DNA of 64,000 bases from an uncultured Gemmatimonadales bacterium (GTDB lineage Bacteria; Gemmatimonadota; Gemmatimonadetes; Longimicrobiales; Gaopeijiaceae), in assembly GCA_963809895.1 (NCBI GenBank), contig CAWELD010000003.1, forward strand, positions 1,376,001 to 1,440,000, written 5' to 3'. The position numbers and the translations under genes are program-made. The notes beneath the pieces were generated by a model. That model did no database searches. It had not been told where the DNA came from and saw nothing but the letters and a program-made list of their open reading frames with translations. This document shows, one piece after another, positions 21,377 through 38,418 of this stretch. Position 1 is the first letter of the stretch. Every line of letters starts with the position of its first letter.

Positions 21377-21497
21377 GAGCTCCTCCCTTGGTCTGTTGGA
21401 TCGGTCGGTCCGCCCGGCGGTCGAGCCCGGCGGGTACAATGTCCAGTATAGGCAGCGCCGCGGAGTGCGCGCCACGGATTCCTTGCGCACGGAAACG

Positions 21498-21526
21498 TGG
21501 ACGGGTCGACGGCGCCGTGATATCAT
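21498..21526 (+). promoter_or_regulatory. Promoter for a probably leaderless TA transcript, with a TGATATCA palindrome over the -10
   Basis: TGGACG(21498-21503)-17 nt-TATCAT(21521-21526), ATG 7 nt later, no RBS. Confidence 0.5.
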
Positions 21527-21533
21527 TTATCGT

Positions 21534-22100
21534 ATGAGTGATACTACCGACACCCTGCCCTCCGGTCGCTTTCTGCTCAGGATCGATCCCGCGCTGCACG
21601 CCACGCTCCGGGATCAAGCCGAGCGTCAGGGTCTGTCGCTGAACGAGTACTGCGCGCGGCGTTTGGCCTATCCGGGCCTGGACGTGGGGGGCCCCGCGCC
21701 GGACGCGGTGCGCCGAGCCCTGACCGTCACCCGCGGTCGTGTGCGCGGCCTCCTGGTGTTCGGATCGTGGGCGCGCAACGAGCTCAGCGACGACTCCGAC
21801 GTGGACCTGCTGGTGGTGTTGGACCGGGGGCAGGTGCTGGAGCGGAGCCTGTATCGCCGGTGGGACGAGGCTCCGGTGCTCTGGGAGGGGCGGAGCGTGG
21901 AGCCCCATTTCGTTCATCTTCCCGGCGAGGGCGACCGCGTCACGGGCCTGTGGGCCGAGGCGGCCCTCGACGGCGTGGTCCTGTTCGATCCGGACTTCGC
22001 CATGTCCCGCCACCTCGTGCACGTACGGAAGCAGATCCTCGCGGGGCGGCTGGTCCGCCGCGAGATCCACGGACATCCCTACTGGGTGGAGGCCGCCTGA
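21534..22100 (+). CDS. HicB-like RHH domain fused to a minimal nucleotidyltransferase (MNT antitoxin)
   Basis: SGRFLLRIDPALH...GLSLNEY (HicB C-terminal RHH) followed by FGSWARNELSDDSDVDL (GSx10DxD). Confidence 0.87.
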   Translation: MSDTTDTLPSGRFLLRIDPALHATLRDQAERQGLSLNEYCARRLAYPGLDVGGPAPDAVRRALTVTRGRVRGLLVFGSWARNELSDDSDVDLLVVLDRGQVLERSLYRRWDEAPVLWEGRSVEPHFVHLPGEGDRVTGLWAEAALDGVVLFDPDFAMSRHLVHVRKQILAGRLVRREIHGHPYWVEAA

Positions 22101-22525
22101 TGCACAACCCCGACCTGGCGCGGGACTACCTGCGACGCGCCGCGATCCGCCTGGAAGCGCTGGACGTGCTGTACGGCGGAGAGAGCTGGGCCGATGTCGT
22201 CCGCGAAGCCCAGGAGATCGTGGAGCTCACGCTCAAGGGTCTCCTGCGGGCCTGCGGCATCGACCCTCCCCGCATTCACGACGTGTCCGAGATCCTCCTG
22301 GCCGAACGGGACCGCCTCCCCGAAGGACTGGAGCCGGAGGTGGAGACGCTGGCCGAGATCTCGCGCCAGCTCCGCCGGGACCGCGAGCTGGCGTTCTACG
22401 GGGCCGAAGACCTGACGCCGTCGGGCTTCTATTCGAAGGGGGATGCCGAGCGCGCGCGCGACGGAGCGCGATCCACCGTCACCCTGGTGAAGCCACACGT
22501 CCTGGACCCGGCTGGGGGCGCATAG
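22100..22525 (+). CDS. HEPN-domain protein
   Basis: TGATG overlap with the MNT gene; AQEIVELTLKG, PRIHDV and RELAFY (Rx4Y). Confidence 0.87.
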   Translation: MHNPDLARDYLRRAAIRLEALDVLYGGESWADVVREAQEIVELTLKGLLRACGIDPPRIHDVSEILLAERDRLPEGLEPEVETLAEISRQLRRDRELAFYGAEDLTPSGFYSKGDAERARDGARSTVTLVKPHVLDPAGGA

Positions 22526-24103: not shown

Positions 24104-24598
24104 TCAGCCTCCCCCGCCTCCTGCCTGCTTGCCGCGGAACGTCAGGGGGAGCTGCATCCAGACGCCCACGGCGCACTGACCCTGCAGGGCCTGGGTGAAT
24201 CGCACCTGCTTCGCCACGGCGAATCCGGCGGGCTGCAGGAGCTCGGCGCCGGACGCCCCCACGAGCCGGATGTCTTCGACCTCACCCTCGGGTCCGACGT
24301 AGAAGGCGAACACGAGCTTGCCGGAGAGCGCCTGTCTGGCAGCGGCCATGGCCCGCACGTACTGGCGCTGCTGTACGTCCTGGACCTTCTCCGGGTTGGC
24401 GATCCGGGGCCACATGGTCACTTCCTGGGCCCGCGGTCCTCCCGCTTGCGGCGCATCTTCCTGGGTCCAGGGCGCGGGATCGCACGGCGGCGCCAGGGAT
24501 TCGGACGCAGAGCGCGACCCGGCGCTGGCGCAGGCGGTGACAAGGGGGATGGCGGTTGCGGCGATGACGCGGCCGATGGTGACGCGGCGCACGGCCAC
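24104..24598 (-). CDS. Putative lipoprotein with a TonB C-terminal-like domain
   Basis: Lipobox LVTAC; GKLVFAFYVGPEGEVEDIRLVGASG...VWMQLPLTF resembles TonB_C; start uncertain. Confidence 0.7.
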   Translation of the reverse strand: MAVRRVTIGRVIAATAIPLVTACASAGSRSASESLAPPCDPAPWTQEDAPQAGGPRAQEVTMWPRIANPEKVQDVQQRQYVRAMAAARQALSGKLVFAFYVGPEGEVEDIRLVGASGAELLQPAGFAVAKQVRFTQALQGQCAVGVWMQLPLTFRGKQAGGGGG

Positions 24599-24702
24599 TC
24601 CGGGTAGAGTGAAGGGGGGGACGCGCAAGCTAGTAGGCTGCGGTGGTGGGCGCGAGGGAGCGCTCGTGAACCCTGCACGCGGAGGGTTCGTAGGGACAGA
24701 AC

Positions 24703-25299
24703 GTGGACGCGTCCGGTACGGGCCGCTGCGATCCATCCACCCGATCGGTCGACGATGGGGTCCGGAGCGCGGGGGCCCGGCGCGTCACCTGCCACGCCCC
24801 ACACGGAGCGAACCCCGTGGCCCATCGCCCGCTACCCGACGCGGCATCCGCGGCCTCCACGGCGCCGGTTTCCAGGCCGGCGCCTTCCGTGGCCGAGGCC
24901 GACGCCGCCGGCGGGCGCACTGCCCTGCTGAGCGTGCTGGGGTGGCTGGCTCTCCTCGCAGGTGGCCTCATCCTGTCGTTGGGCATGGCCTCGCTGGTCG
25001 GAGCACGGGTGCGCTCGGCCGCGCTCGTAGACGTGGACCGGAGCCCGGTGGGGTCGGTGCCCTCGTACTCCGACGCGCCCCGGGCGGCGCTGGCCTTCTT
25101 CGCCCGGCGCGACACGGTCACGGTGCGGGTGTCCCGAGACATGACCGTAGCCGACTTCCTCGCGCTCTACCATCTGGAGACCAACGCGTCGGCCCGAGCA
25201 GCCCTGAGGGATCAGCTGGGCGCCGTGGCCGATGCCGACCTCCTGCGTGAGGGTGACGAGGTCACGCTCACCGTCACCGTCGGCCGGGAGACGCCATGA
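24703..25299 (+). CDS. Operon gene 1: single-TM protein with a degenerate LysM-like C-terminal domain (start uncertain)
   Basis: TM segment LLSVLGWLALLAGGLILSLG; VTVRVSRDMTVADFLALYHL...DLLREGDEVTL follows the LysM pattern; ATGA overlap with the next gene. Confidence 0.65.
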   Translation: MDASGTGRCDPSTRSVDDGVRSAGARRVTCHAPHGANPVAHRPLPDAASAASTAPVSRPAPSVAEADAAGGRTALLSVLGWLALLAGGLILSLGMASLVGARVRSAALVDVDRSPVGSVPSYSDAPRAALAFFARRDTVTVRVSRDMTVADFLALYHLETNASARAALRDQLGAVADADLLREGDEVTLTVTVGRETP

Positions 25300-26147
25300 C
25301 GCCCGATCGCGATCCTTTCGAGTCGGGCCAGGACGCCACCGACGAGATCCGCCACGCCCTGGAAGCCATCCGCGCCGACGTGCGCGCCGTGGTGCAGGAC
25401 GAGGTGGCCCGAGCCGGCATGTCCGAAGGTGAGCTGGAGCGGTTCGTGGCCGACCTCGTGCGCAAGAACCTCACCGAGGCCGCCGAGGTCCGGCCGCGCG
25501 CCAGCGTGTGGAGCGCGCCCGTGCTCCTGCTCACCGGCCTGGTGGTGGGGCTGCTCGGGGGATTCGCCGGCTACTGGATGCTGGCGAGACCAACGACGGA
25601 CGGCGCACGTCCCCCGGCGCTGTCCTCGGCGGCACCCGACCCGGGAGCCGCCACCGCGCCCACCGAGACCGACGCCTCGGCCGCCCCCGCCAGCCAAGGC
25701 TCGCAATCCTCGACGTCGCCGCCACCGGCCGCGGCCGCGCCGACCGCGCTGGCCGCTCGCTACGATTCCCTCTTCGCGGCCCACGACCCGGGCCTGGAAC
25801 CGCTTCTGGCGGAGCTGGAGGGAAAGGCGGCCCCACCCGTGCTCGCCGCGCTGACGGAGTGGCGCGGCGGGGGGGCGCTGGACCCGGGCCCCCGGCGGCG
25901 GCTGCACGACGCACTGGTGCAGGCGGCGGTAAACCGCTTGGCCGGCACGGCTCTCACGCTGGACGGCCTGGTGACCCGGAACCCGTGCGGTGGGGCGTCG
26001 TGCGGCGCCATCCTGCAGCTGTGGCAGGCGCGAGGCCCTGAGCTGGGCCTGCCCGCGTATCCGGCAGCCGACACGGCCCGGGACGCCGCGCTGCCGACGG
26101 TGGAACGCGTCCTGGTCATGCGTGGACTGGAGGCCGACGGTGGCTGA
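25296..26147 (+). CDS. Operon gene 2: bitopic membrane protein with an Ala/Pro/Ser linker and a possible peptidoglycan-binding C-terminal domain
   Basis: TM segment VLLLTGLVVGLLGGFAGYW; LVQAAVNRLAGTALTLDGLV...GGASCGAI resembles the PG-binding LxxDGxxGxxT motif. Confidence 0.7.
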   Translation: MTPDRDPFESGQDATDEIRHALEAIRADVRAVVQDEVARAGMSEGELERFVADLVRKNLTEAAEVRPRASVWSAPVLLLTGLVVGLLGGFAGYWMLARPTTDGARPPALSSAAPDPGAATAPTETDASAAPASQGSQSSTSPPPAAAAPTALAARYDSLFAAHDPGLEPLLAELEGKAAPPVLAALTEWRGGGALDPGPRRRLHDALVQAAVNRLAGTALTLDGLVTRNPCGGASCGAILQLWQARGPELGLPAYPAADTARDAALPTVERVLVMRGLEADGG

Positions 26148-28263
26148 CGTCGTGTCGCTGGACCGTCACGTCCTGGCCTCACCGGCCACGGCCTTCGACA
26201 CGGCCTGGTCCACGTACGGCTGGACCCCCGGCATCCAGGACCGGGTGGGGCGCCTCGAGGAAGAGGTACCCTGGGGAACCCACGTGGCCCGGGCCACGGA
26301 CCCGCCGCGGTTGTCGGGACCGGCCCAGGCGCTCCTGAACCCCGACAACCTGGACCGGTTGGGAAGCGGGGTTCTGAGGGTGGACGGCCGCCTGGGCTTC
26401 GCCCTGTGGGGCGCCTTCGGATCGGGCTCCGGCGGCGCGGACCGCCGCGTGCTGACCCACACGCTGCTCATGGACGACGCCGCCTTCCGGCAGGTGGCCG
26501 GCTATCCGCAGGGGCTGCTCTGGGACGGCGACCGGCCGGCGGCGTGGTTCCGGGAGTTGGCGGAAGAGCAGGACTTCCTTGAACCCACACCGTTGACCCC
26601 GGTGCGGCTGGGTCTCGAGCGGGCGCGTACCGCGGCCCTCGCCCGGGCGCGCATCGTGGAGTTGGACCGGCTCCGGGGCGCCGTCCTGGATCAGCTCGGC
26701 GGCGACGTCGATGGCCTGTCCTCGCTCCTGGCCACGACCTACGAGGCCGTGGCCCGGGCCAGCGCCGGCGACCAGGTCCGCCATGTCGTGGTCCGAGGCG
26801 TGGGCGCCGCCACCTCGCGGCTCCTGAAGCTGGTGTGGCTGTCGCTCCCGTTGGAGGACCGCATCCGCGTGTCGTACGTGACCGAGCAGCGTCGGTCGGA
26901 ACGGCCCCGGGGCCTGCTCCTGGGCCTCCCCGAGGCCGAGTGGGGACGCTACGTGCCCGACGGCTCCTGGGTGGTGGACGAGCACGAGCCCGCCGAAGCC
27001 GGCGCCGGTCGCGTGCACTGGGCGCGGGCGCTCACGGCCCCGGATTCGCTGGAGACGTTCCGGCGTCTGGACGCCCGGGCGGCGAGTCGCCGGTGGCGAC
27101 TGGTCACCGCCGACGACCTGGCAGCGGAGGGCGCCCGGGGCGCCTGGCAGGTGGCGTGGGCGTCCCGAGGTCCGACCCTGGACGGTGTGCGGGCCCTGCT
27201 GGAGCTGGAGCGTCGCCGTCCGGGGGGCGTCCGCGCCCGGGCGCTGGGCCAGGCGCTGGGCGAGGCCGTGGCGACGACCACGACCGAACGCCCCGGCGCC
27301 GTCGACGCCATGGACGATGCGCTGAGCCTGTCCACCGAGCTCCCGGCGAACGCGCGCATGGGCGTGCTCCGGGGCGCCGTGCGCGCCCTCCGCGCTCGAG
27401 GTCCCGACGGACGGCGCCGCGCCGCGCTGCTCCGGTGCCGGGCGGCGGCCTCCGGTGACGCCGAGCTGTCCAGCGAGCTCCACCGCCTCGTGGACCGGGA
27501 GTCCGACGCGCTCCGTGCGCTCGTGGCCGATCCCGAGAGGGGAGGCGGCCTGGAGCTCGTCCTGGGCGCGCTGCCGCTGGCCGCCACCGGCGACCCGGTG
27601 GGCCGGGAGCTGGTGCGCCTCGGGGCCGCCGAGACCCGCTGGACCCCGGCGCGGGCCGCGACGCTGGGCACCGCTCTGGCCGCCCGGGCAACGGATGGCG
27701 ATCTCGACCCGATCCTGGCCGACATCCTGACGACGCTGCTGCGCGAAGGAGACCACGAGGGTTGGCACCGGCTGGTGTCCGAGGTTCCGGCGTCGTGGCT
27801 CGCGCGCCCGGCGATTCTGAGAGAGCTGATCGGTGGGATCGAGGCCGGCCGCCACCCCTTCGGCGCCGGCGCCCCCGAAACCGGCGAGCTCGCCGACAGC
27901 CTGGCCCGCCGGCTCCTGGAGCGCGCGGGGCGGACGGGGTTGGGTCCCGAACGCGCCACGGCGGTGCTCCGTCTGCTGTGGGCCGCGGGATCCGACGAGC
28001 CCCTGGACGCCCTGGATCTCCATGCGAGCACCCGCGTGCCGGTGCTGGCGGAGCTGCTGGCCGTGCCGGCGCCCCTGCCCCTCTTCCATGGCATCCGGCG
28101 GCGGCTCGAGCGCGCCCTGGACGCGGCGGGCGCGGATCGTTCGGCCGAGCCCTGGGTCGACACGCTTCGGCCCTGGGCACCGGCCCTGGCGCGGCGGTTG
28201 GCCGGCAACGACTCGGCGGCTCCGCACCCGGCGCCCCGCTTCCTGGTAGGAGCCGGATCGTGA
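26140..28263 (+). CDS. Operon gene 3: ~707-aa cytoplasmic protein with a GAP1-N-like N-terminus and a helical C-terminus
   Basis: GTG at 26140 after GGAGG; WSTYGWTPG and GGADRRVLTHTLL resemble GTPase-associated protein N-terminal domains. The family call is tentative; the ORF itself is well supported by GC3 and overlaps. Confidence 0.6.
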   Translation: MADVVSLDRHVLASPATAFDTAWSTYGWTPGIQDRVGRLEEEVPWGTHVARATDPPRLSGPAQALLNPDNLDRLGSGVLRVDGRLGFALWGAFGSGSGGADRRVLTHTLLMDDAAFRQVAGYPQGLLWDGDRPAAWFRELAEEQDFLEPTPLTPVRLGLERARTAALARARIVELDRLRGAVLDQLGGDVDGLSSLLATTYEAVARASAGDQVRHVVVRGVGAATSRLLKLVWLSLPLEDRIRVSYVTEQRRSERPRGLLLGLPEAEWGRYVPDGSWVVDEHEPAEAGAGRVHWARALTAPDSLETFRRLDARAASRRWRLVTADDLAAEGARGAWQVAWASRGPTLDGVRALLELERRRPGGVRARALGQALGEAVATTTTERPGAVDAMDDALSLSTELPANARMGVLRGAVRALRARGPDGRRRAALLRCRAAASGDAELSSELHRLVDRESDALRALVADPERGGGLELVLGALPLAATGDPVGRELVRLGAAETRWTPARAATLGTALAARATDGDLDPILADILTTLLREGDHEGWHRLVSEVPASWLARPAILRELIGGIEAGRHPFGAGAPETGELADSLARRLLERAGRTGLGPERATAVLRLLWAAGSDEPLDALDLHASTRVPVLAELLAVPAPLPLFHGIRRRLERALDAAGADRSAEPWVDTLRPWAPALARRLAGNDSAAPHPAPRFLVGAGS

Positions 28264-29783
28264 CTATCGACGCGCTGTGCCGTCGCTGCCACGGGCCCCT
28301 CAACGACGAGGGCCTGTGCCCCCGCTGTGACGCCGACGAGGTGGAGGTGGCCACCAAGCTCCGCCAACTCCGGGCCGAGATCGCCCGGGAGCGGGGCGAG
28401 CAGGCGCCGGCCGAGCCCGTCAGCCGCCTGTGGCACGCCAAGAAGGAGAAGCTGGAGCAGGCCAAGCGGGAGGCCGAGAAGAAGCGAGCGGCGGCCGCGT
28501 CCGCCGACGAGGCTCCCGACCACGCGGGCCGCGGGGCTCCTTCGCAGACGTCACCGGCCGAGCCTCCCCCGCCCGAAGAGCACGTCGCGCCCGAGCCGGA
28601 CACGAAGAGCGCCCCGCCCGCCGGCCCCGCTCGGGTCCACCGGGCCGGGGTGTCGGCCTCGGGCATCCGGGCCCGCGAGCTCGACGTCACCGACCCCCGC
28701 CACGGCAGCGAGGCCGTGCGTGAGCTGCTCGAGCACCGCCGCCGGGGCCTGGGCAAGATCGTGGGCATCGCCGGGCTGCCACGGCACGGCAAGACCAAGC
28801 TCGCCGACCGCCTGCGGGAGCGGTACGCCGAGCGCCCCGGAGCCGACCTCCGCTACGACAAGACCGAGCGGGGCGAGGTCAACCTCTACTACATCCCCGG
28901 ACGCCGCGAGCACCACGTGCTGGTGGACGTGGCCGGCGAGGACTTCCAGGCGCTGGGCGACTACGAGCGCGAGCTCCCGGCCCTCATGCGCCAGTTCCTG
29001 TGGCCGGTGCTCCAGGAGCTGGACGGGCTCGTCCTGCTCATGGCGCTCCCCATCGTGTGGGCCGGCTGGAGCGATCCCCACTCGGAAACGCGGGTCGAGC
29101 CCAGCGAGCGCGACGAGATCGCCATGCGCCAGGCACGGGACCGCATGGTGGCGGCGCACCGCATGCTCCTGAAATACGCCATCGTGGCCCGGGACCTGAA
29201 GCGGCTGCGCCGGGTCGTTCCGGGTCTGGGTCTGTCGGCCACCGAGGTCCCCACCCGCAACCAGGTGGACGACGCGGTACCCTCCGCGCGCCGCCTGTCG
29301 GTGCCGGTGTCGGTGGGCTTCAGCAAGGCCGACCTGTACGCGCCGGGCGAGGGGCCCGACGCCGGGGGCGGACTCCGGCGCGTGGGCCTCTACACGCCGG
29401 ACGTGCCGGGACGGAGCGGCCAACCCGCCCCGCCGCTCCATCCCCTGCACACCGATCCCCTGATCCTGGGCTATCTCCACTTCCCGGAGCTCTTCGAGTT
29501 CATGGAGACGCGGGTGCGCCACTTCCACTTCGACTTCGTGCAGGCGCTGGTGGACCGGAGCGAGGAGCCCGATCCCCAGGAGGCCACCGAGGCCGGCGCC
29601 GATGCGGGCCGGGGCACGCTCCTCGGCGGAGAGGGACTGGTGGAGTTCGTGACGCAGCATCCGTGGCGCGTACCCGGTCTGGACACCCGGCGGGCGCTCA
29701 AGCTGAATCGCTTCCTGGACCCGCGCCGCTGGGACCGCAAGCTGCTCAGGGCCCTCCACGACCGGGATGGAGGCGACCGATGA
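28260..29783 (+). CDS. Operon gene 4: zinc ribbon + coiled coil + TRAFAC-class P-loop GTPase
   Basis: CRRC-x9-CPRC; G1 GLPRHGKT (28773-28796), G3 DVAGE (28926-28940), G4 SKAD (29322-29333); GTGA and ATGA overlaps. Confidence 0.85.
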   Translation: MTIDALCRRCHGPLNDEGLCPRCDADEVEVATKLRQLRAEIARERGEQAPAEPVSRLWHAKKEKLEQAKREAEKKRAAAASADEAPDHAGRGAPSQTSPAEPPPPEEHVAPEPDTKSAPPAGPARVHRAGVSASGIRARELDVTDPRHGSEAVRELLEHRRRGLGKIVGIAGLPRHGKTKLADRLRERYAERPGADLRYDKTERGEVNLYYIPGRREHHVLVDVAGEDFQALGDYERELPALMRQFLWPVLQELDGLVLLMALPIVWAGWSDPHSETRVEPSERDEIAMRQARDRMVAAHRMLLKYAIVARDLKRLRRVVPGLGLSATEVPTRNQVDDAVPSARRLSVPVSVGFSKADLYAPGEGPDAGGGLRRVGLYTPDVPGRSGQPAPPLHPLHTDPLILGYLHFPELFEFMETRVRHFHFDFVQALVDRSEEPDPQEATEAGADAGRGTLLGGEGLVEFVTQHPWRVPGLDTRRALKLNRFLDPRRWDRKLLRALHDRDGGDR

Positions 29784-31834
29784 GGCGCCCGCGCATGCGA
29801 GGGCTCAAGAAGGTCGTGGTGGGCACGGGTCGCCGGGTGCGCCCCGGGCGAGGCGCGCTGGCCCTGCTCGCGCTGTGGGTGGGCGCCCTGGTGGCGGGAG
29901 CCGGAGGGCTCTTCTGGTGGGCCACCGCCAGCGCGTCGCCGGCCCGGACCCTGGCGCTGGCGGCCAGCGTGCTGCGGGAGCCTCCGGCGCTGGACTCGGC
30001 GCTGGAGGTGACCTGGACATGGTCCGTGGGAGGCACCCGTGACCTGGGAGATCGCTGGCTGGCCCTGGTGGCGCCGGCGCTGCCCCCGGGAATCTGCGTG
30101 TCGGCCGGCACCGAGCTGGACGATGCGTTGCGTCAGCTGGATGCCTCGGTGAGCCGCGGGGCCGGCGCCGAGGAGCTGGAGCGCCGACTGTTGGCGTTGC
30201 GCTCGGCGGGGACCGCGGCTCCCGGCAGCCGGGCCGAGTTCGTGGTGCGCTACAACCTGGCGCGCGGGTACGGCGCCGCCGGCGACTGGGCCACCGCGGC
30301 CGAGGTGCTGGAACCGGTCCTGGCCGGCTGGATCTCGCTGGAGCGGGTCCCGGAGACCAACGCCGGCACCGCCCTGGCCCGGGTGCGCCGCGGCGCCGTG
30401 GACCAGGAGTCGGCGCTGGACGCCTTCCACGGCCGCTACCTGGCGGGCACCATCGCCTACCGCCGCGGTGAGCCCGCCCGGGCCGTGGCCCATTTCCGCC
30501 GGGCCATCAACGCCGTGCACTACCTGCTCGCGCTGGGCGCCGGCGGTTCGCTGGGACCCGAGTCACACGACGAACGGGTGGTGGCCGCACTGGGCCCGGC
30601 CCGCTGTCCCGGAGCGCGGAGCGACGACGCCCTCACCTCGCTGGACGCCTACGCCGGGCTGGTGGCGTCGTACATGGCCGACACCGGGTTCCGCGACCCC
30701 GGTGGGCTTCCGGCCGAAGTGGCACGGACGCGGCTCGAGATCGATGCCGACGACCCCTTCGGACCTGTGCTGGAGCACGCGCGCCTGACCCGGGGCGATC
30801 CGGCGCGCACGCCGGTGCCCGAGAACCTGATGTGGGCGGCGTCCAACCTGCAGCGGGTCTACTACCACAACCGGCTCCGCCCCGAGCCCCGGCTCGAGGT
30901 GACCCGGGCGGTGCTGCTCCTGCACCTCACGGACCGCGACCCGTGGACCGAGGCGTTGCGGGAGCAGGGCGGCGCCGACGTGTGCCGCATGCTGGGCGAG
31001 CTGGGCGACGATCTGGAGCGCGATCAGTCCACGCTGCAGATCGGGCGAGCGCCCGGCGCACCGGTGGACAGCGCCCGGGCCGCCGTGGCGGTGCGCACCT
31101 TCGCCCGGCTGCAGCGGGACTGCGGAGGCGAAGGCGCCCCCACCGTCGATGCCCGCGCGCGGAGCGACTGGATCCGCATGGGCGGGCCCTACCTGACCCG
31201 AGGCGTGGGCAGCCTGTTCGAGGAGCTGCGCAGCCAGGTGGCCGCCGCAGTCCGCGAGGCCGGCACGCCGGTGCCCGTGCTGGAGGAGCGGCTGGCGCCG
31301 CCGGTGGAGCGGGCCAGCGCCTACCGGGCGTCGCTACACCGGGGTCGAATCCCCGGGGAGCTGCCCGCCGATCTCCCGGTGGCCCCGGTACGAGGCTTCG
31401 TGGACGACTGGTGGCAGGCCCTGTTCTCGGACGTAGCGGAGAGCCTGGTGGCCCGCGTGCGCCGGCCCGCCCCCGCCGGAGACGGCTCCATCCGGGCGGG
31501 CGAGGTGCCCGAGCTGCTGTCGGCGCTGGAATCGTCGGCCCACTACGCCGGGCTCCGGCCCGACCAGGTCTACTCCGTGTCCGAGACCGCCTCGCTGGCG
31601 GCCACGGGAGGTGCCCGAGCGGAACTGGGCTGGCGGCTACGGACCTGGATGCGCAACCGGCCGCTGGCGGCGGCGGGTGTACTGGCCGCCGTGGTGCTGG
31701 CCCTCACCGTGGCCGCCCTGCTGATGCACGTGAGCTGGTGGCGCTACCGGCTGCTCACCCGGCAGCGGCTGTACGTGGAAGAGGCCCGGGCCCGGGGCGT
31801 CGCCGAGGCCGGAACGCGGAGGAACGCCGCATGA
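29780..31834 (+). CDS. Operon gene 5: TPR-like protein with N- and C-terminal TM anchors
   Basis: YNLARGYGAAGDWATAAEVL and YLAGTIAYRRGEPARAVAHFRRAI are TPR-like; hydrophobic segments at both ends; ATGA overlaps on both sides. Confidence 0.75.
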   Translation: MRRPRMRGLKKVVVGTGRRVRPGRGALALLALWVGALVAGAGGLFWWATASASPARTLALAASVLREPPALDSALEVTWTWSVGGTRDLGDRWLALVAPALPPGICVSAGTELDDALRQLDASVSRGAGAEELERRLLALRSAGTAAPGSRAEFVVRYNLARGYGAAGDWATAAEVLEPVLAGWISLERVPETNAGTALARVRRGAVDQESALDAFHGRYLAGTIAYRRGEPARAVAHFRRAINAVHYLLALGAGGSLGPESHDERVVAALGPARCPGARSDDALTSLDAYAGLVASYMADTGFRDPGGLPAEVARTRLEIDADDPFGPVLEHARLTRGDPARTPVPENLMWAASNLQRVYYHNRLRPEPRLEVTRAVLLLHLTDRDPWTEALREQGGADVCRMLGELGDDLERDQSTLQIGRAPGAPVDSARAAVAVRTFARLQRDCGGEGAPTVDARARSDWIRMGGPYLTRGVGSLFEELRSQVAAAVREAGTPVPVLEERLAPPVERASAYRASLHRGRIPGELPADLPVAPVRGFVDDWWQALFSDVAESLVARVRRPAPAGDGSIRAGEVPELLSALESSAHYAGLRPDQVYSVSETASLAATGGARAELGWRLRTWMRNRPLAAAGVLAAVVLALTVAALLMHVSWWRYRLLTRQRLYVEEARARGVAEAGTRRNAA

Positions 31835-34800
31835 TCCTTCTGCTGCTGGGCGTGGTGTGCTTCGTGGCCGCTCTCCGGGTGGCCGGAAACGGCCGGGAGG
31901 GCGCTGGCGAGCTCGTGCGCGGCGCCGGAGCCGCGGCGTGGGCGGCGCTGGTGGCGCTCCTGATCCTCCTGCAGCTCGCCGTGGGGGCGCGCCGGGACCG
32001 TATGGAGGGCTACCGGCTCACGCTGTTGGGATTCCGGTACCAGGTGGCCGAGCAAGCCGGGGCTCCCGCCACGGCGTTGAGCGTCGGAGGCAGCTACGAG
32101 TCCGCGGACCTGTGGGTGCCCGGCGCCGGCGACCGCCCGGTGGCGCTGCTCAGGCCCGCCGCTACGGGCAACACCGTGGAGGTGCACGCCGAGTTCGACG
32201 CCGGGGCCGTGGCCATGGTGGAAGAGCGCGGGCTGCTGGGCTCGAGCTGGACGGTGCTGGGCGGCCGCAGCGTGGGCCCCGGCGACACGGTGGTGGTCCA
32301 GGGACCGGCCGCGAGCTACCGGCTGGTGGCCGAGACCGTGCCCGACACGCTCCACCTGTTGGGGACGCAGGTGGCCCTGCCCTGGGTGCGCCAGCACCTG
32401 CTGCGGTTGATGGGCCCCACCGGCTCGCCCGCCCCGGGTTCGGCGCTGCTCCCAGGTGTGGAGCGGGGCCCGCTGGCCAGCCTCCGGCGCTGGCATCCCT
32501 CGGTGCTGCAGCGGACCTATCCCCTGGCCGACGTGCTGACCGTGACCGGCGCAGAAGGCAGCCTTCCCGCGCTGTCCAGCTTCTTCTACTACCAGGACGG
32601 AGCGCTCCACCTGGCGGATCTGGACAGCGAGGTGCAGGTGCTGCCGGCGGCGAGTGCCGGTGACACCTCGGACCCGGCGCTACCCGACGCCATGCTGACC
32701 GGCGGCCGCCTCCTGGTGGCGGGTCTCCCCCATCGCGACTACCCGGAGCCCGATCTCACGCTGCCCGAGCGCTACGGCGTCCGGCCGCTGCGGTCGTTCC
32801 GGGTGGAGCGGCACGGGGCGTGGATCGATGCCGGGCTGTCGTCTCCCGAGGTCCGGGGGCTCGACCGGCAGGCGCTGGAAGAGCTGCGCCTGCCCGACAA
32901 CCGCGCCCAGGACGGCAGCGCCGTCTACCGCGTCCGCCTGGCCCCGGCCCGCGACGCGCTGGCACGCCAGGCCGTGGTCTTCGCGGCCTCCCCGGAGCGC
33001 TTCGCGGTGCCGGGCCAGGCGATCCTCACGCTTCCCGTGGATCCCGCCGACGGCGACATCGAGGTGCTCACGCCCTCGGGCCAGGCGAGCTGGCACACGG
33101 GGCGTCCCCTGGCCCTGGGGACCGGCGAGCGCAGCCTGCTGGTGCGCGTGGACGGCCAGGGCACCTCGACGGGCTACTGGCTGCTGCACGGGGCGCTCCT
33201 GCTGCTGCCCGTGCTGCTCTTCCTGCTGCGGCCCATGACCGGCCCGGTGTTCGCGCTGGCGCTGGCCGTGCTGGCCCTGGCGGGCTTCCGGCTGGTGTTG
33301 GCGCTGTCCGCGCTGGCGGCGCCGCCCTACGCCATGGAGGCTCAGCAGCTCGGACTGTGGCTGCTTCCGTTCCTGCCCTGGGCGGTGGTGGTGGCGGGCG
33401 AGCTGGGCGCCGGATGGCGAAGGACGGCCAATGCTCCCGAGCCGGCGCCGGCATCGTGGCGTCGCCACGGCTTCCACGCGGTGTACGCCCTGGTTCTCGT
33501 GGGATTCGCGGCGGTCCTCTTCCCCACCTCCTCCACCAAGGCCGGGGCCCTGGGGATCGTGGCGCTGGGCACGGCGGCCATGCGGATGTGGGCGGCCCGG
33601 GGATGGCCCAGGGTGCGAGCGGCGTGGCGGCGGTTCGCGGACCGGATCACCGGCCGCCCGTGGCTGCTCCGGGGATGGGCCCTGGGCCTGGGTCTGCTGG
33701 CGCTCCGGGCGCTGCTGGACGCCGCGGGATGGCGGGAGCAGTTGACGGTGGGCGGCACCCGCATCGGCGTGAGCCTGCTGTACACGCCGCTGGCGGTGGT
33801 CGCGCTGGCGCTGGTTCTGGTCCGGTGGGACGGCGTGTTGCGCCGGGCCCGCGCCGCCGGGGGATTCCCCGGCCAGGTGGCGCGCGCGCTCCTGGACGTG
33901 GGCGCCTTCCTGCTGCTGGCCTACGTGGGCGTCGGCGCCTGGATCAGCGACTTCGGGCTGGCGCTGGTGCTGCTTCCGGGGGCGCTGGTCCTGCTGGCGG
34001 TGGTGGGGGCGCGCTGGGCGCCCCCGGGCCGGGCCGGAGCGCTCACCATGGCCACCCTGGGTCTACCCCTCATGCTCTTCGTCCTGCTCCAGGTGGCGCC
34101 GCCGCTGCTGCGCTTCTCCTGGGGCGGCGACCTGCAGGCCGTGGACGCGCGCCTGGGCGAATGGAACCGCAACGAGCTCCTGCTCCTGGAGCGCGGCGAT
34201 CCGGAGGGGCTCCGCCTCATCGGCCAGCGTCGCAGCGAAGCGCTGGCGGTCATGCGCCAAACCATGCGCTCCTACACCCGGGGCAATCTGCTGGGCAAGG
34301 GATTCCTGGAGGGTCGCGTCTCCGACGAGATCGCCGAGACCTCGACCCGCGAGCACGTGGCCAGCGCCCTGCTGGCCAGCCAGTTCGGCCTGCCGGGCAC
34401 GGCGGGGCTGATCCTGGTGCTGCTGGCGCTGCTGCCGCCGGCGCTGGGCCTCCTGGGAGAGGAGGCTGGCGGAGACCGGGGCCGCGGGGGCGGCCCGACG
34501 TCGCCTTCGCGCCACGAGGGCGGCGGCCCCGCGGCGGGCGTGGGCGTCCTGGCGCTCCTGTTGGTGGCGCTGGTGCCGACGTCGTACCTGCTGCCGTCGC
34601 CCTTCAACGTGCTGCTGGTGGGCGTGGTGCTGCTGGCCCTGCTCGTGGCGCTGCTGGCGCCGGCGTTCGGGGGCGCGGGGGTGTGGGGATGGGCGAACGG
34701 CGGGACGCCCGAGGCCGGGAACGGTCCCGCCGCGCTCCCGGCGCGTCGCCTGATCGCCGCAGCGGCGCTCCTGACCATGGCGCTGGCCGGTCTCTACATG

Positions 34801-35046
34801 GTGCTGGCCAACTACGGGCTGGCGTTCTTCACCGGGAAGAACGTCTACCTGCTGGGGCTGGATTCGGTGGGAGACGCGCTGGAGGCGGTGGCGCTTCTGG
34901 CGCTGGCCGCGGTGGCGCTGGGCCTGGAGTCCTCGGCACCGACGAGGCACGAGACGGCGGTTCCGGAATCCCCCGAAACCGCGCTGCAGACGACCCACGC
35001 GGAGTGGTGGCACGCGTCCGACCGAGGACAGGGAGTGAGGGCATGA
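31831..35046 (+). CDS. Operon gene 6: ~1071-aa divergent SEDS-family (FtsW/RodA/SpoVE-like) polytopic membrane protein with a large N-terminal soluble domain
   Basis: SDFGLALV (cf. PDLGT), GNLLGKGFLEG, STREH...SQFGLPG (cf. HTDF...EExG) and NYGLAFFTGKNVYLL (cf. GLxPxTGxxLP) occur in SEDS order, directly upstream of a PBP. Confidence 0.72.
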   Translation: MILLLLGVVCFVAALRVAGNGREGAGELVRGAGAAAWAALVALLILLQLAVGARRDRMEGYRLTLLGFRYQVAEQAGAPATALSVGGSYESADLWVPGAGDRPVALLRPAATGNTVEVHAEFDAGAVAMVEERGLLGSSWTVLGGRSVGPGDTVVVQGPAASYRLVAETVPDTLHLLGTQVALPWVRQHLLRLMGPTGSPAPGSALLPGVERGPLASLRRWHPSVLQRTYPLADVLTVTGAEGSLPALSSFFYYQDGALHLADLDSEVQVLPAASAGDTSDPALPDAMLTGGRLLVAGLPHRDYPEPDLTLPERYGVRPLRSFRVERHGAWIDAGLSSPEVRGLDRQALEELRLPDNRAQDGSAVYRVRLAPARDALARQAVVFAASPERFAVPGQAILTLPVDPADGDIEVLTPSGQASWHTGRPLALGTGERSLLVRVDGQGTSTGYWLLHGALLLLPVLLFLLRPMTGPVFALALAVLALAGFRLVLALSALAAPPYAMEAQQLGLWLLPFLPWAVVVAGELGAGWRRTANAPEPAPASWRRHGFHAVYALVLVGFAAVLFPTSSTKAGALGIVALGTAAMRMWAARGWPRVRAAWRRFADRITGRPWLLRGWALGLGLLALRALLDAAGWREQLTVGGTRIGVSLLYTPLAVVALALVLVRWDGVLRRARAAGGFPGQVARALLDVGAFLLLAYVGVGAWISDFGLALVLLPGALVLLAVVGARWAPPGRAGALTMATLGLPLMLFVLLQVAPPLLRFSWGGDLQAVDARLGEWNRNELLLLERGDPEGLRLIGQRRSEALAVMRQTMRSYTRGNLLGKGFLEGRVSDEIAETSTREHVASALLASQFGLPGTAGLILVLLALLPPALGLLGEEAGGDRGRGGGPTSPSRHEGGGPAAGVGVLALLLVALVPTSYLLPSPFNVLLVGVVLLALLVALLAPAFGGAGVWGWANGGTPEAGNGPAALPARRLIAAAALLTMALAGLYMVLANYGLAFFTGKNVYLLGLDSVGDALEAVALLALAAVALGLESSAPTRHETAVPESPETALQTTHAEWWHASDRGQGVRA

Positions 35047-37605
35047 AGACGACCACCGCCGTCACCTGGGCCGCCGTCGGAACGCTGGCCGTGCTCGGCT
35101 GCCGTGAGCCTCGGGACGGCTCCGGCGGGCTTCTGGGCGCCGCAGGGCTTCGTGGCCCGGGCCGATACGCTCATCCAGCGGGGCAGGGCTGGGGCTGGTG
35201 TGCGAGGCGCAGGACTCCATCGTCACCCGCTTCACGGCCGGGAGCGACGAGGAGGCGTTCTTCGCCGCGAGCTACCTGCGCTCCGACGTGCGCGCGTTCA
35301 ACGCCGGGCAGGACCTGGACCGGTCGCCCTTCCTGGTGGACGGCTGCCGCCTCGTGGGCGTGGACCCGTTCTATCATCGCGTGGACCTGCCGTACAATCG
35401 CCTGCCGCGCTGGCGGGGCTCGCTGCTCTACACCTTCGAGGGCCGCACGGCGACGCTCGAGGGCGCCGCGGCGCAGGAGCTGGAGGTGCGCCGCCCGGTG
35501 GACCGACGGGACGCGGCCACGAGCTCCCAGCGGGTGTCTCCGGCTCAGGACGGAGCGCGGGTGCGCACCGCGCTGCTGCGACTCACCGCGCCCGGCACCC
35601 GCGAAGTCCTGGCCGATGCCTTCTTCGTGGGCGACGACCCGGTGCTGGCGGACCGACGTGACGTCGGATCCGCCGACGTGCTGCGCGTGAACGGCTTCCG
35701 CACGCCGCCTGGCCGGATCCTCGGCTGGAGCCGGGGGATTGGGTGCAGATGGCCAGCGGAGGGGTGTGGACCTGGCTGGCCGAGACCGACGACCGGGCCC
35801 GGGTCGCATCGTTCGTGCGCGTGCGGAACGACCGGGTGGAGCGCCTCTTCCCCGCCACCCGGCTGCAGCCCGTGCTGCAACCCTTCGGACGGGCCATGGA
35901 CCTGGCGCTCCAGACCGTGCCCGGCGGGTCGTCGGCCTCGCTGCTGCAGGCCGACGTGCGCCTGACGCTGGACCGGGAGCTCAGCGACGCCCTGGACGGG
36001 GTGATGGCGGACTGGTGCCGCGAGCACGCCGATCCCACGCGGCCGCGGGCGGCCTCGTTCCTGGTCATGGACGGCTTCACCGGCAAGGTGCGGGCCATGC
36101 CCAGCTGCCCGGGCGCCGCGGAGCTGGCGGCCTACGAGCCGCTGTCGGCGCGGACGCGGGAGCGCTTTCTCAGGAACCAGAACCTGGCGCCCCATCCCGT
36201 GGGGTCGGCGGCGAAGCCCTTCTGGACCGCCGCGGTGGCCACCACCTGGCCCAACATGCTGGACCTCCGGATCCCCGCCCACTCCCCAGGGCCGGCGGGG
36301 GCGGTGTTGGGCTGTCCGCTGTCGGCCCCCTATCACGACGGACACGGGTCCGCCGACTGGACCGGGCTCGAGACCTTCCTGCAGCGCTCGTGCAATCGCT
36401 ACGTGGTGCAGATGGCCTCGGCGGCGCTGGTCCTGGGATCCGCCACCGGCGGTGAGGCGTGCCGGGGGCCGCTGTCCGCGGCCGCGTTCGCGCGCTGCTT
36501 CCCGGCGGCGGAGGCAACCGGCGCCTCGGCCGCGGACTCCACCCGCGTGCTCCGCTTCTGTGACAACGTGGTGGCCACCGCGCTGGCGCCGGGGCTGGAG
36601 GTGGTGGGCGGGAGCTGCGACGACCTGCAGCTCGTCGATGCCGAGTTCGTGCCCGGTCCGGCGCTGTCGGCCATGACCAACGTGGCCGTCTACCGCGAGC
36701 CGTCGCCGGACCTCCGCGGGAGTGGGGGCTCGGCGGCGCTGGGCGATCAGTATCGCCTGGGCCGCTACCGGGTGGATGCCTGGCGGACCGTGCTCGATCG
36801 CCTCATCGCCGCCGGCGATACGGCCGACGTCGTGCACACTGCGCTACGGTTCGCCGGCGCGTCGCCCCAGGCCACCAACCTGGCGCTCAACACGGTGGAG
36901 GAGCTCCGCACCGACTGGGTCAACCTGCTGCTGGGCGGCGAGAACAGCCGCTGGTCCAACTTCGAGCTCGCCGAGGCCACGGCCCGGCTCATGACCGGGC
37001 GGGCCGTGCGAGGCACCTTCGCGGACAGCGTGGGACTGCCCGGGGGCGGGAATCCCCCCGCCGACTCGGCACCCCTGCTGGACGAGGCCACCGTGGCCCC
37101 CGGCGTCCGTCGCCGGGTGCTCCACGCCATGGAGCTGGTGGCGCGTCCGGGAGGCACCGCGGGGCGGCTGCAGCCGGCACTGGCCCGGCTGCGGGAGCGC
37201 GTGCGCGAGGCCGGCGGCCGCACCCCCTACGATCTCTACGCTTTCGCCAAGACCGGGACCCCCGCGGTGGAAACCTCCGCATCGGATCCGCGGCAGGGCG
37301 GCGTCCTCATCCTCGGCCTGCTGGCCGTGCCCAGCGACCAGGGTCGCAGCCGGGCCGTGTCCATGGACGCCTGGGTGAGCGCCTGCCCCCTGGATCCCGA
37401 TCTGCGCCGGGGGATTCTGGAAGTGCCACCCCGGGGCCTACTCGATCCCCAGCGCGCCGTGTCCCTGTCCGTGGCCATCTATCTGGACGACCTCGCCCCC
37501 GGCCAGGGGAGCGGCTCGGCCGTGGACCTGGCGCTCCGCGCTCTCGACGGTGTGGGCGATCTCATGGTCCGCGAGGTGGGGCGGAAGGTGGAGGATGCGG
37601 GCTGA
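35043..37605 (+). CDS. Operon gene 7: penicillin-binding transpeptidase-domain protein; apparent frameshifts near 35100, 35187 and 35725
   Basis: N-terminal anchor MKTTTAVTWAAVGTLAVLG; LTLDREL, VMDGFTGKVRAM, GSAAKP (SxxK, 36205-36216), SCN (36388-36396), AKTGT (KTG at 37249-37257). Confidence 0.8.
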
Positions 37606-37620
37606 CCTGGGCACTCGGGC

Positions 37621-38418
37621 TCACCACCACCGCACACCGTCCGGGATGGCCCCGGCCCGGATCGCTCGCCGGGCCTCCGCGAGCGCCTTTTTCGCGTCGG
37701 GCCCATTCCAGAACCGTTCCACGGCATCGAGGTGACTCAGGACGGCCTCCCGCTCCCCCACCTCGAGGAGCTCGCGCGCGAGTGAAAAGCCCGGTCCGAA
37801 CGACGACAACCGAGGTGTACTCTCACTCTCCCCGGCTCGACGAAGGAACTCGAGGGCCTCCTCGCGCTGCTGGCGCCGGAGCGCCACCCGGCCCCGAAGC
37901 TGGTTCATCTGATACTGGGTGTCGCCCCGCGTCCGGACGTCCGCCTGCGGGAGGCCCCGCAATGCGCTCGCGGCTAGGGAATCCGCTCTGTCCAGGTCAC
38001 CGGCCTCGAAAAGCGCCTCCGCGAGCGGACGGACCAGCATTCCCCGGACCATTTCGGCTTCCGGCTCGTCCGTGGATGACGGGACCTCCGCGAGGATCCG
38101 CTCCAGGCACACCTGCGATCTCCGGAAGGCCTCACGCCGGGCTTCGCCCTCCATTCCCGCTCGGTCACGGGCCCGGACGACGCAGATGCCCGGTCCATAC
38201 GCAGCCCAGAGTAAGCCGTCGTCTCGGGTCCTCATCGCCGATACGACGATCGTCAGAGCGGTGTCCCGGTCGGCAAGCGTCAACAGGTAGGGGTTCTCTC
38301 TCAACCGGGAACCCAGGGCCTCCCACTCGACCTCGGACGAGGGCACCACGATCCGTTGCCCCGACAGAAATCCGGGGACACACAACAGCATCCCGATCCC
38401 CACCATGCATGTCTTCAT
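37621..38418 (-). CDS. Hypothetical exported helical (TPR-like) protein
   Basis: Signal-like N-terminus, GGAG RBS, GRVALRR...EALEFL and SSFGPGFSLARELL; codon usage differs from the flanking operon. Confidence 0.65.
   Translation of the reverse strand: MKTCMVGIGMLLCVPGFLSGQRIVVPSSEVEWEALGSRLRENPYLLTLADRDTALTIVVSAMRTRDDGLLWAAYGPGICVVRARDRAGMEGEARREAFRRSQVCLERILAEVPSSTDEPEAEMVRGMLVRPLAEALFEAGDLDRADSLAASALRGLPQADVRTRGDTQYQMNQLRGRVALRRQQREEALEFLRRAGESESTPRLSSFGPGFSLARELLEVGEREAVLSHLDAVERFWNGPDAKKALAEARRAIRAGAIPDGVRWW

What the first reader, a model, noticed from the sequence alone, without database searches (positions are those of the whole stretch)
24703..37605. Seven-gene coupled operon joining a GTPase/GAP1-like switch to a private SEDS + PBP cell-wall module
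Seen: all six junctions overlap (ATGA/GTGA at 25296, 28260, 29780, 31831, 35043 and an 8-nt overlap at 26140). Order: LysM-like TM protein, PG-binding-like TM protein, ~707-aa cytoplasmic protein, zinc-ribbon GTPase, double-anchored TPR protein, giant SEDS-like protein, SxxK/SxN/KTG transpeptidase. Established: SEDS and class B PBPs work as cognate peptidoglycan synthase pairs, normally steered by FtsZ or MreB, and GTPases with DxAGE/xKxD motifs beside GAP1-type genes are described in predicted conflict systems. No dcw or mre genes flank this locus. Inference: an accessory, GTPase-controlled envelope-building or remodelling machine, perhaps for local wall repair, defence, or installing a trans-envelope structure. 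I know of no characterised system with this layout.
Basis: partly seen in the sequence, partly recalled or inferred. Interest (0 to 1): 0.9.

Follow-up and report, generated by a model that had tools for sequence, protein, structure and literature searches.

The report
GTPase-switched accessory cell-wall synthase operon
Seven overlapping genes join a switch-type GTPase and its partner protein to a spare, very divergent copy of the two enzymes that build bacterial cell wall, a recurring combination that suggests wall synthesis turned on locally by a molecular switch.

Summary
The operon is real. All six junctions overlap as stated, and all seven genes recur in order in other Gemmatimonadota genomes. 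One correction: gene 7 has three frameshifts here, probably assembly errors, and is whole in relatives. Gene 6 folds like RodA/FtsW (Z 19.7) and keeps an acid at the likely catalytic position (53 of 53). Gene 7 is a class B PBP relative with intact catalytic motifs. Genes 3 and 4 resemble GAP1 and DO-GTPase but score below Pfam cut-offs. In metagenome loci gene 6 precedes gene 7 in 42 of 44, and a GTPase lies beside them in 22 of 26. A second branch has two GTPases, GAP1 and a fused SEDS-PBP. Nine related genomes carry the enzyme pair without the switch. The host keeps its normal ftsW/ftsI and rodA/mrdA. The LysM and PG-binding labels were not confirmed. Best reading: an accessory, GTPase-gated local peptidoglycan synthase; gating and purpose are inferred. 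Six literature searches found no description. This scan noted a like cassette on another genome (e1-6758980).

The parts
24703..25299 (+). Gene 1: small single-TM protein with a conserved short C-terminal domain (LysM-like only by eye); likely start 24817
   Evidence: Similar proteins sit before or after the SEDS-PBP pair in 20 other loci (the distant ones, 16-30% identity, were picked by position); LysM not supported (Prob 2%)
25296..26147 (+). Gene 2: N-terminal helical part, one TM, linker, C-terminal domain with a Cys pair (PG-binding label unconfirmed)
26140..28263 (+). Gene 3: GAP1-like cytoplasmic protein (GAP1-N2-like and GAP1-M-like N-terminal half, variable helical tail)
   Evidence: GAP1-M E 8e-4, below cut-off; GAP1-N2 in 6 of 27 relatives, best E 7.6e-5, all below cut-off; family alignment
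28260..29783 (+). Gene 4: TRAFAC-type GTPase, DO-GTPase-like; N-terminal zinc ribbon; G1 GLPRHGKT, G3 DVAGE, G4 SKAD
29780..31834 (+). Gene 5: TM - TPR-like helical domain (predicted periplasmic, conserved Cys) - TM, with a conserved C-terminal tail
31831..35046 (+). Gene 6: giant SEDS-fold protein; 2 N-terminal TMs, beta-rich domain 60-443, SEDS domain about 465-1036; candidate catalytic E841
   Evidence: AF2 pLDDT 82, pTM 0.85; VIA Z 19.7 RodA, 18.0 FtsW, 17.1 RodA; motif conservation
35043..37605 (+). Gene 7: class B PBP-like transpeptidase with a novel beta-rich N-terminal region; three frameshifts in this assembly (near 35100, near 35187, near 35722-35776)

Best explanation
An accessory peptidoglycan synthase gated by a GTPase switch. 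Shown: gene 6 has the SEDS fold with a conserved acid at the likely catalytic position, gene 7 has a PBP fold with intact SxxK/SxN/KTG, the two are partners (always adjacent, fused in three proteins), and they are surplus to the host's Rod and divisome pairs. Inferred: gene 6 polymerises lipid II and gene 7 cross-links the strands. Gene 4 (GTPase) and gene 3 (GAP1-like partner) form a cytoplasmic switch at the membrane. Gene 5, anchored at both ends, relays the switch state to the periplasmic domains of the synthase, taking the place of MreB/MreCD or FtsZ/FtsQLB. Genes 1 and 2 tether it to the wall. The likely output is a local patch or thickening of wall on a cue such as envelope breach or a developmental signal.
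For: SEDS fold, Z 19.7, rmsd 4.0 over 311 residues, next unrelated row 9.6. E841 column is D 30 or E 23 in 53 of 53, in a motif that lines up by eye with the host's own H[TN]DFIF..EE.G; D707 invariant, like PDL[GS]. Asp262 is catalytic in E. coli RodA (PMC10449877, passages). Gene 7 profile hits PBP2 at E 1e-14, its model hits PBP3 at E 1e-12, and S394, K397, S457, K727, G729 are invariant in 131 of 131. Fusions of genes 6 and 7: P0161, L112, L131. Co-occurrence: 42 of 44, and GTPase 22, GAP1-like 20, TM-TPR-TM 22 of 26. The link survives rearrangement (convergent layout in 4 related loci). Independent route: L112 was fetched by a Pfam DO-GTPase2 hit and turned out to hold GTPase-GAP1-GTPase+TM next to a fused SEDS-PBP; L131 repeats this and L140 has the same parts reordered. 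Switch-bearing loci lie in both branches of the PBP tree, and one lies inside the switch-less clade. Housekeeping pairs are present elsewhere.
Against: 9 of 12 more distant phylum loci have the SEDS-PBP pair with no switch beside it, and no GTPase of the double type was found in those 9 genomes, so the synthase may work ungated. GAP1 and DO-GTPase scores stay under cut-off, and my GAP profile did not hit two true GAP1-N1 proteins; my GTPase profile hit L110's DO-GTPases but not L109's. The window's branch has Glu, not Asp, at the putative catalytic site, one residue off by sequence register and not checked by superposition. Gene 6 scores nothing on Pfam FTSW. Gene 7 is broken in this assembly. 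No activity or expression data.
Confidence: 0.6

Rival explanations
1. A biological-conflict system: a new GAP1-N2-type theme in which the SEDS-PBP pair is the effector, walling off or sealing a phage-infected or attacked cell. This is a specific version of the best explanation.
For: Kaur et al. 2020 (PMC7159879, abstract and sections 27-29 read) predict that DO-GTPase/GAP1 systems act at the membrane and propose physical containment. Patchy distribution: 18 of 401 phylum genomes, variable neighbours. PADLOC hit 6 of 40 neighbouring proteins, and a HEPN gene lies 2 kb upstream.
Against: 0 of 7 operon proteins hit PADLOC; most of the 6 neighbour hits are generic kinase, helicase or similar domains, with only one clear type IIG restriction enzyme and one candidate system. 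The neighbours were hand-picked, with no background rate. The enzyme pair is constant, not hypervariable like the effectors described there. No plasmid match.
Confidence: 0.25
2. A developmental or morphogenetic synthase, like SpoVE-SpoVD (recalled), building a special wall zone such as a bud, stalk, junction or resting coat, with the GTPase marking the site.
For: Dedicated extra SEDS-bPBP pairs do this in spore formers (SpoVE is named in PMC10449877 passages). Switch-less pairs persist with intact motifs in 9 loci. A kinase or PP2C-like gene lies downstream in L042 and L077.
Against: The scattered occurrence (GC 0.42-0.77; Gemmatimonadota, Ca. Thiomargarita) follows no morphology that I could test.
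Confidence: 0.2
3. The SEDS-fold protein uses another undecaprenyl-linked glycan, and the PBP attaches that polymer or a protein to the wall; the machine does not make ordinary peptidoglycan.
For: Only 14-18% identity to RodA/FtsW; WaaL shares the fold at Z 9.5; large novel periplasmic domains; Glu in place of Asp in this branch.
Against: SEDS matches stand 8-10 Z above WaaL; the partner is a D,D-transpeptidase-type PBP; no glycan-synthesis genes recur in the loci.
Confidence: 0.1
4. In this genome the operon is decaying and gene 7 is a true pseudogene.
For: Three frameshifts within about 700 bases; the third is not covered by any listed outside contig.
Against: A contig from another sample (X1 record 6, 35029-35214, depth 3.2, a single contig) lacks one base at each of the first two breaks. 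The third lies at a G run. The other six genes and the catalytic motifs are intact. Gene 7 is one frame in relatives.
Confidence: 0.2

Closest known systems
SEDS - class B PBP pairs (RodA-PBP2, FtsW-FtsI; SpoVE-SpoVD recalled)
   Same: SEDS fold with the acid-bearing loop motif; PBP fold with SxxK/SxN/KTG; adjacent or fused; single N-terminal TM on the PBP.
   Different: Three times the size, with an extra 380-aa beta-rich domain and extra TMs. No Pfam FTSW hit in this branch and no PBP_dimer hit; the PBP N-terminal region is a different beta-rich domain (FHA over cut-off in P0161 only). No mre or dcw genes recur beside it. Forms its own branch apart from the host's MrdA and FtsI (two outgroups only).
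DO-GTPase/GAP1 GTPase-centric systems, GAP1-N2 type (Kaur et al. 2020, PMC7159879)
   Same: TRAFAC GTPase with Glu after the Walker B (DxxGE), N-terminal zinc ribbon, adjacent GAP1-like gene, one- and two-GTPase forms, TM-bearing second GTPase, membrane components.
   Different: Scores below Pfam cut-offs; no FNIII or GASH component detected; none of the tubulin, HSP70 or kinase themes. The linked module is a constant, apparently active biosynthetic pair. FtsW, SEDS, transpeptidase and penicillin do not occur in that paper's main text; FtsW, RodA, PBP, transpeptidase and penicillin do not occur in its 2 held supplements; other source-data files were not seen.
Actinobacterial FHA-PP2C-RodA-PbpA-kinase operon (recalled, not tested)
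   Same: Accessory SEDS-bPBP pair inside a signalling operon; FHA-like domains.
   Different: Control there is by Ser/Thr phosphorylation; here the recurring partners are a GTPase, a GAP1-like protein and a TM-TPR-TM protein.

Membership tests
SEDS glycosyltransferases | SEDS membrane fold | tested here: met
   Z 19.7/18.0/17.1 to RodA, FtsW, RodA over residues 465-1038; Foldseek top hit FtsW, prob 1.00 but E 5.6e-3
SEDS glycosyltransferases | Catalytic acid in the periplasmic loop (E. coli RodA D262) | tested here: met
   E841 column D/E in 53 of 53; matched by motif, by eye, one residue off; Glu in the window's branch
SEDS glycosyltransferases | Pfam FTSW_RODA_SPOVE over cut-off | tested here: not met
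   0 of 25 close members; the fused relatives L112 and P0161 reach E 1.3e-4 and 8.8e-4, under cut-off
SEDS glycosyltransferases | Lipid II polymerisation | not testable with these tools
   needs an assay
Class B PBPs | Transpeptidase fold with SxxK, SxN, KTG | tested here: met
   Pfam Transpeptidase in 25 of 40 sampled relatives at E<=0.01, 12 over cut-off; none for the window or its 3 closest relatives
Class B PBPs | Non-catalytic pedestal (PBP_dimer) domain after one TM | tested here: inconclusive
   One TM present; no PBP_dimer hit; the wide fold search of the model did not finish
DO-GTPase/GAP1 systems | TRAFAC GTPase with conserved Glu in the Walker B motif | tested here: met
   D and G invariant, E in at least 90% of 30; nearest solved structures EngB and Der
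DO-GTPase/GAP1 systems | Pfam DO-GTPase1/2 match | tested here: inconclusive
   7 of 30 and 4 of 30 at E<=0.5, none over cut-off, window protein not among them; the related L112 GTPase just passes (27.4) and scores 25.1; the two GTPase sets align at Prob 97.6
DO-GTPase/GAP1 systems | Adjacent GAP1 with N, M and C domains | tested here: inconclusive
   GAP1-M E 8e-4 in the window; GAP1-N2 6 of 27 and GAP1-M 3 of 27 relatives, all under cut-off; no GAP1-C hit; no reverse hit to two true GAP1-N1 proteins
DO-GTPase/GAP1 systems | FNIII-repeat (N2 type) or GASH (N1 type) component | tested here: inconclusive
   No such Pfam hit on any operon gene; divergence could hide it
LysM domain (gene 1) | LysM profile or fold | tested here: inconclusive
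   0 of 21 Pfam hits, no PDB hit, Prob 2% against 4 host LysM repeats; not folded
PG_binding_1 domain (gene 2) | PGBD profile or fold | tested here: inconclusive
   No Pfam hit, no relevant PDB hit; not folded

The most novel reading that the evidence does not exclude
A third way to steer a SEDS-bPBP synthase: instead of an actin- or tubulin-like filament, a DO-GTPase/GAP1 switch with a trans-membrane TPR relay turns on local wall building on demand, possibly as a construction-type immune effector that seals or walls off a breached or infected cell.
Probability: 0.4. Interest if true: 0.92.

Novelty: new variant of a known kind. Interest (0 to 1): 0.8.

Why it matters
All well-studied SEDS-bPBP pairs are steered by FtsZ, MreB or sporulation machinery (established knowledge). 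A wide, unannotated branch (632 clusters at 50% identity at E<=0.001, of which I examined the best 150) tied to a GTPase switch would add a new mode of cell-wall control. It would also give the DO-GTPase/GAP1 systems, so far only predicted, a measurable enzymatic output (lipid II polymerisation, Bocillin labelling), which makes their mechanism directly testable.

Tried and rejected
Complex prediction of gene 5 (60-470) against the gene 6 and gene 7 N-terminal domains of G180: no answer, median 0.09 against a mark of 0.32, single runs 0.56, 0.09, 0.01; not evidence either way. Single-sequence Pfam and sequence-to-PDB searches miss gene 6. A metagenome scan with one gene 7 protein found nothing. 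ESM Atlas gave no hit for the gene 6 beta domain; for P0053 it gave unnamed clusters (commonest taxa Pseudomonadota, Bacteroidota) and transpeptidases. The fold of the gene 6 beta domain was barely tested (note), and the wide fold search of gene 7 had not finished. FHA in gene 7: over cut-off in P0161 only, 0 of 40 others, so a lead only. The single-GTPase profile A8 is too insensitive to show absence: it missed known double GTPases in G283, G094 and G267. A12 found none in 9 switch-less genomes, but its only positive control was one of its own members. No RNA holder was listed. No plasmid match. No paralogue of any gene in the own genome. G003 and G028, the two weakest of 18 hits, were not followed. 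Literature: (listings); passages of 10.64898/2026.10.19.760177 and PMC11237479 do not describe this system; bioRxiv supplements are closed and most subscription papers are not in the library.
Full report
Observation. The window is part of a 5.3-Mb, 95%-complete genome; its close relatives match records titled Gemmatimonadota. Gene 7 starts with ATGA at 35043 but is not one frame: against an intact relative it reads frame +1 at 35110-35184, +2 at 35189-35776 and +1 from 35722. One contig of another sample lacks a base at 35100 and at 35187 (single contig, depth 3.2), the third break lies at a run of five G, and relatives have one frame of 846-858 aa. Assembly error is the likelier reading; a pseudogene is not excluded.

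Conservation of the whole operon. Gene 6 as a single query found 3 of 400 other phylum genomes; all three have the seven genes in order, with 4-nt overlaps at 15 of 18 junctions. A scan of genome contigs gave 12 loci, all titled Gemmatimonadota, three of them the same contigs as above. The 10 with upstream sequence have genes 3-6 in order and a gene 1 relative, and 11 of 12 have gene 7 (one contig ends).

Gene 6. Pfam and sequence searches are blank. An AlphaFold model from 25 sequences (pLDDT 82, pTM 0.85) matches RodA 8tj3 (Z 19.7, rmsd 4.0, 311 residues), FtsW 8bh1 (18.0) and RodA 6pl5 (17.1) over residues 465-1038; the next unrelated row is 9.6 and WaaL is 9.5. In 53 family members E841 is always acidic (D 30, E 23), in a motif (R-D-F...AEWG in 14 members) that lines up by eye with H[TN]DFIF..EE.G of the host's own FtsW and RodA; D707, R487, R626, E636, T1001, G1002 and N1004 are kept in 51-53 of 53. 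Asp262 is catalytic and Asp159 important in E. coli RodA (PMC10449877, passages). In front lie two TMs and a 380-aa beta-rich domain, periplasmic by the position of the SEDS N-terminus (inference).

Gene 7. A search of 1.84 billion representatives gave 632 hits at E<=0.001, 417 at 1e-10; I examined the 150 listed. In 131 aligned sequences the Ser and Lys of SxxK, the Ser of SxN and the Lys and Gly of KTG are invariant. The profile hits only PBPs, best T. thermophilus-type PBP2 entry 6pl5 at 1e-14 (species recalled), and the model of an intact relative (pLDDT 93) matches PBP3 at 1e-12. The host has canonical FtsW+FtsI and RodA+MrdA loci and one further transpeptidase elsewhere, so this pair is accessory.

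The switch. Gene 4 has GxxxxGK, DxxGE and SKAD across 30 members, with a single N-terminal zinc ribbon in the window and 8 others; nearest solved proteins are EngB and Der. Gene 3 aligns with a family that touches GAP1-M and GAP1-N2 repeatedly but below cut-off. This fits the definition in Kaur et al. 2020 (PMC7159879, sections 27-29) in motif and layout, not by score. A profile of my GTPase family ranks the two true DO-GTPases of L110 (E 7e-7, 1e-6) above the host's other GTPases (best 6e-5) but misses those of L109; the GAP profile misses both true GAP1-N1 proteins.

Wider co-occurrence. A degenerate pattern for the gene 7 active-site stretch found 63 metagenome loci, 61 with a gene 7 relative. 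Gene 6 lies directly upstream in 42 of 44 with room for it. Of 26 loci with at least 7 kb upstream, 22 hold a GTPase, 20 a GAP1-like and 22 a TM-TPR-TM gene by BLAST families; these loci are partly related and the pattern favours this branch. Four related loci carry the switch genes convergently downstream. GC spans 0.42-0.77 and one member is from Ca. Thiomargarita nelsonii.

An independent route. Searching the phylum with Pfam DO-GTPase2, for control sequences, gave four genomes over cut-off. One, G283, proved to have GTPase - GAP1-like - GTPase+TM+helical domain - SEDS::PBP fusion of 1756 aa. G267 repeats this layout and G094 has split enzymes followed by two GTPases and a GAP1-like gene. 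Their GTPases align with the window's family at Prob 97.6. P0161 is a third fusion. So the switch-synthase link exists in a one-GTPase and a two-GTPase form.

Against an obligatory link. With the deeper gene 7 alignment, 18 of 401 phylum genomes match. Of 12 distant loci read, 9 have the SEDS-PBP pair with intact motifs and no switch beside it, and the double-type GTPase profile found nothing in those 9 genomes. In a FastTree of the transpeptidase region the switch-less pairs share a clade (support 1.0) with the two-GTPase locus L140 (its place inside has support 0.62), while the window's branch is mostly switch-bearing. That fits secondary loss of the switch, but repeated gain was not tested.

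Mechanism. Most likely (0.6) the pair makes and cross-links peptidoglycan locally when the GTPase/GAP1 switch, relayed through the double-anchored gene 5 protein, allows it. Folds, motifs, pairing and linkage are shown; catalysis, contacts, gating and purpose are inferred. The fusion of a GTPase to a TM and helical domain in the two-GTPase form is a hint for the relay, though that domain was not shown homologous to gene 5. Purpose: defence by containment or sealing (0.25) and a developmental wall zone (0.2) are the main candidates. None of 7 operon proteins hits PADLOC, and 6 of 40 hand-picked neighbours do, mostly through generic domains.

Known or new. Both halves are known kinds; I file gene 6 as SEDS-fold and gene 7 as class B PBP-like, and genes 3-4 as GAP1-like and DO-GTPase-like without claiming membership. 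The combination was not found in six searches of the open library, in the main text or two held supplements of Kaur et al., or in passages of two further papers.

Noticed in passing
window 21650-22525 (+): Gene pair ending in a HEPN-domain protein, preceded by a HicB-like/nucleotidyltransferase-looking frame (by eye); looks like an MNT-HEPN toxin-antitoxin pair, followed by an MscS-cNMP fusion.
   Followed up: partly
window 18638-21526 (-): 962-aa secreted-looking protein with two Big_2 domains and a long glycine-rich repeat region.
   Followed up: partly
window 24104-24736 (-) and 37621-38418 (-): The operon is flanked by a divergent TonB C-terminal-domain gene and a convergent TPR-like gene; neither recurs in the related loci by BLAST families.
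   Followed up: partly
L112 1456-2415 (-); L134 9416-10324 (+); L135 9629-10561 (-): A lipoprotein-like coiled-coil gene abuts the SEDS-PBP genes in one fused locus and two switch-less loci; homology between them was not tested.
   Followed up: no
L132-L139, L141: Nine Gemmatimonadota-phylum genomes carry a giant SEDS + PBP pair with intact motifs that Pfam does not annotate at all: a hidden third synthase pair.
   Followed up: partly
L027 11026-16091 (-): Two tandem GAP1-like genes upstream of one GTPase.
   Followed up: no
L109 8993-14445 and L110 6409-12946: Canonical GAP1-N1 double-GTPase systems in G399 and G273, the first with EAD1 and beside restriction-modification-looking genes.
   Followed up: partly
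L077 11301-15785 (+); L042 11942-14341 (+): Kinase-like and PP2C-like genes follow the SEDS-PBP pair in L077, which has no GTPase upstream; a kinase-like gene follows in L042.
   Followed up: no
L052 and L073: Gene 7 relatives are also split into two frames in these metagenome contigs.
   Followed up: no
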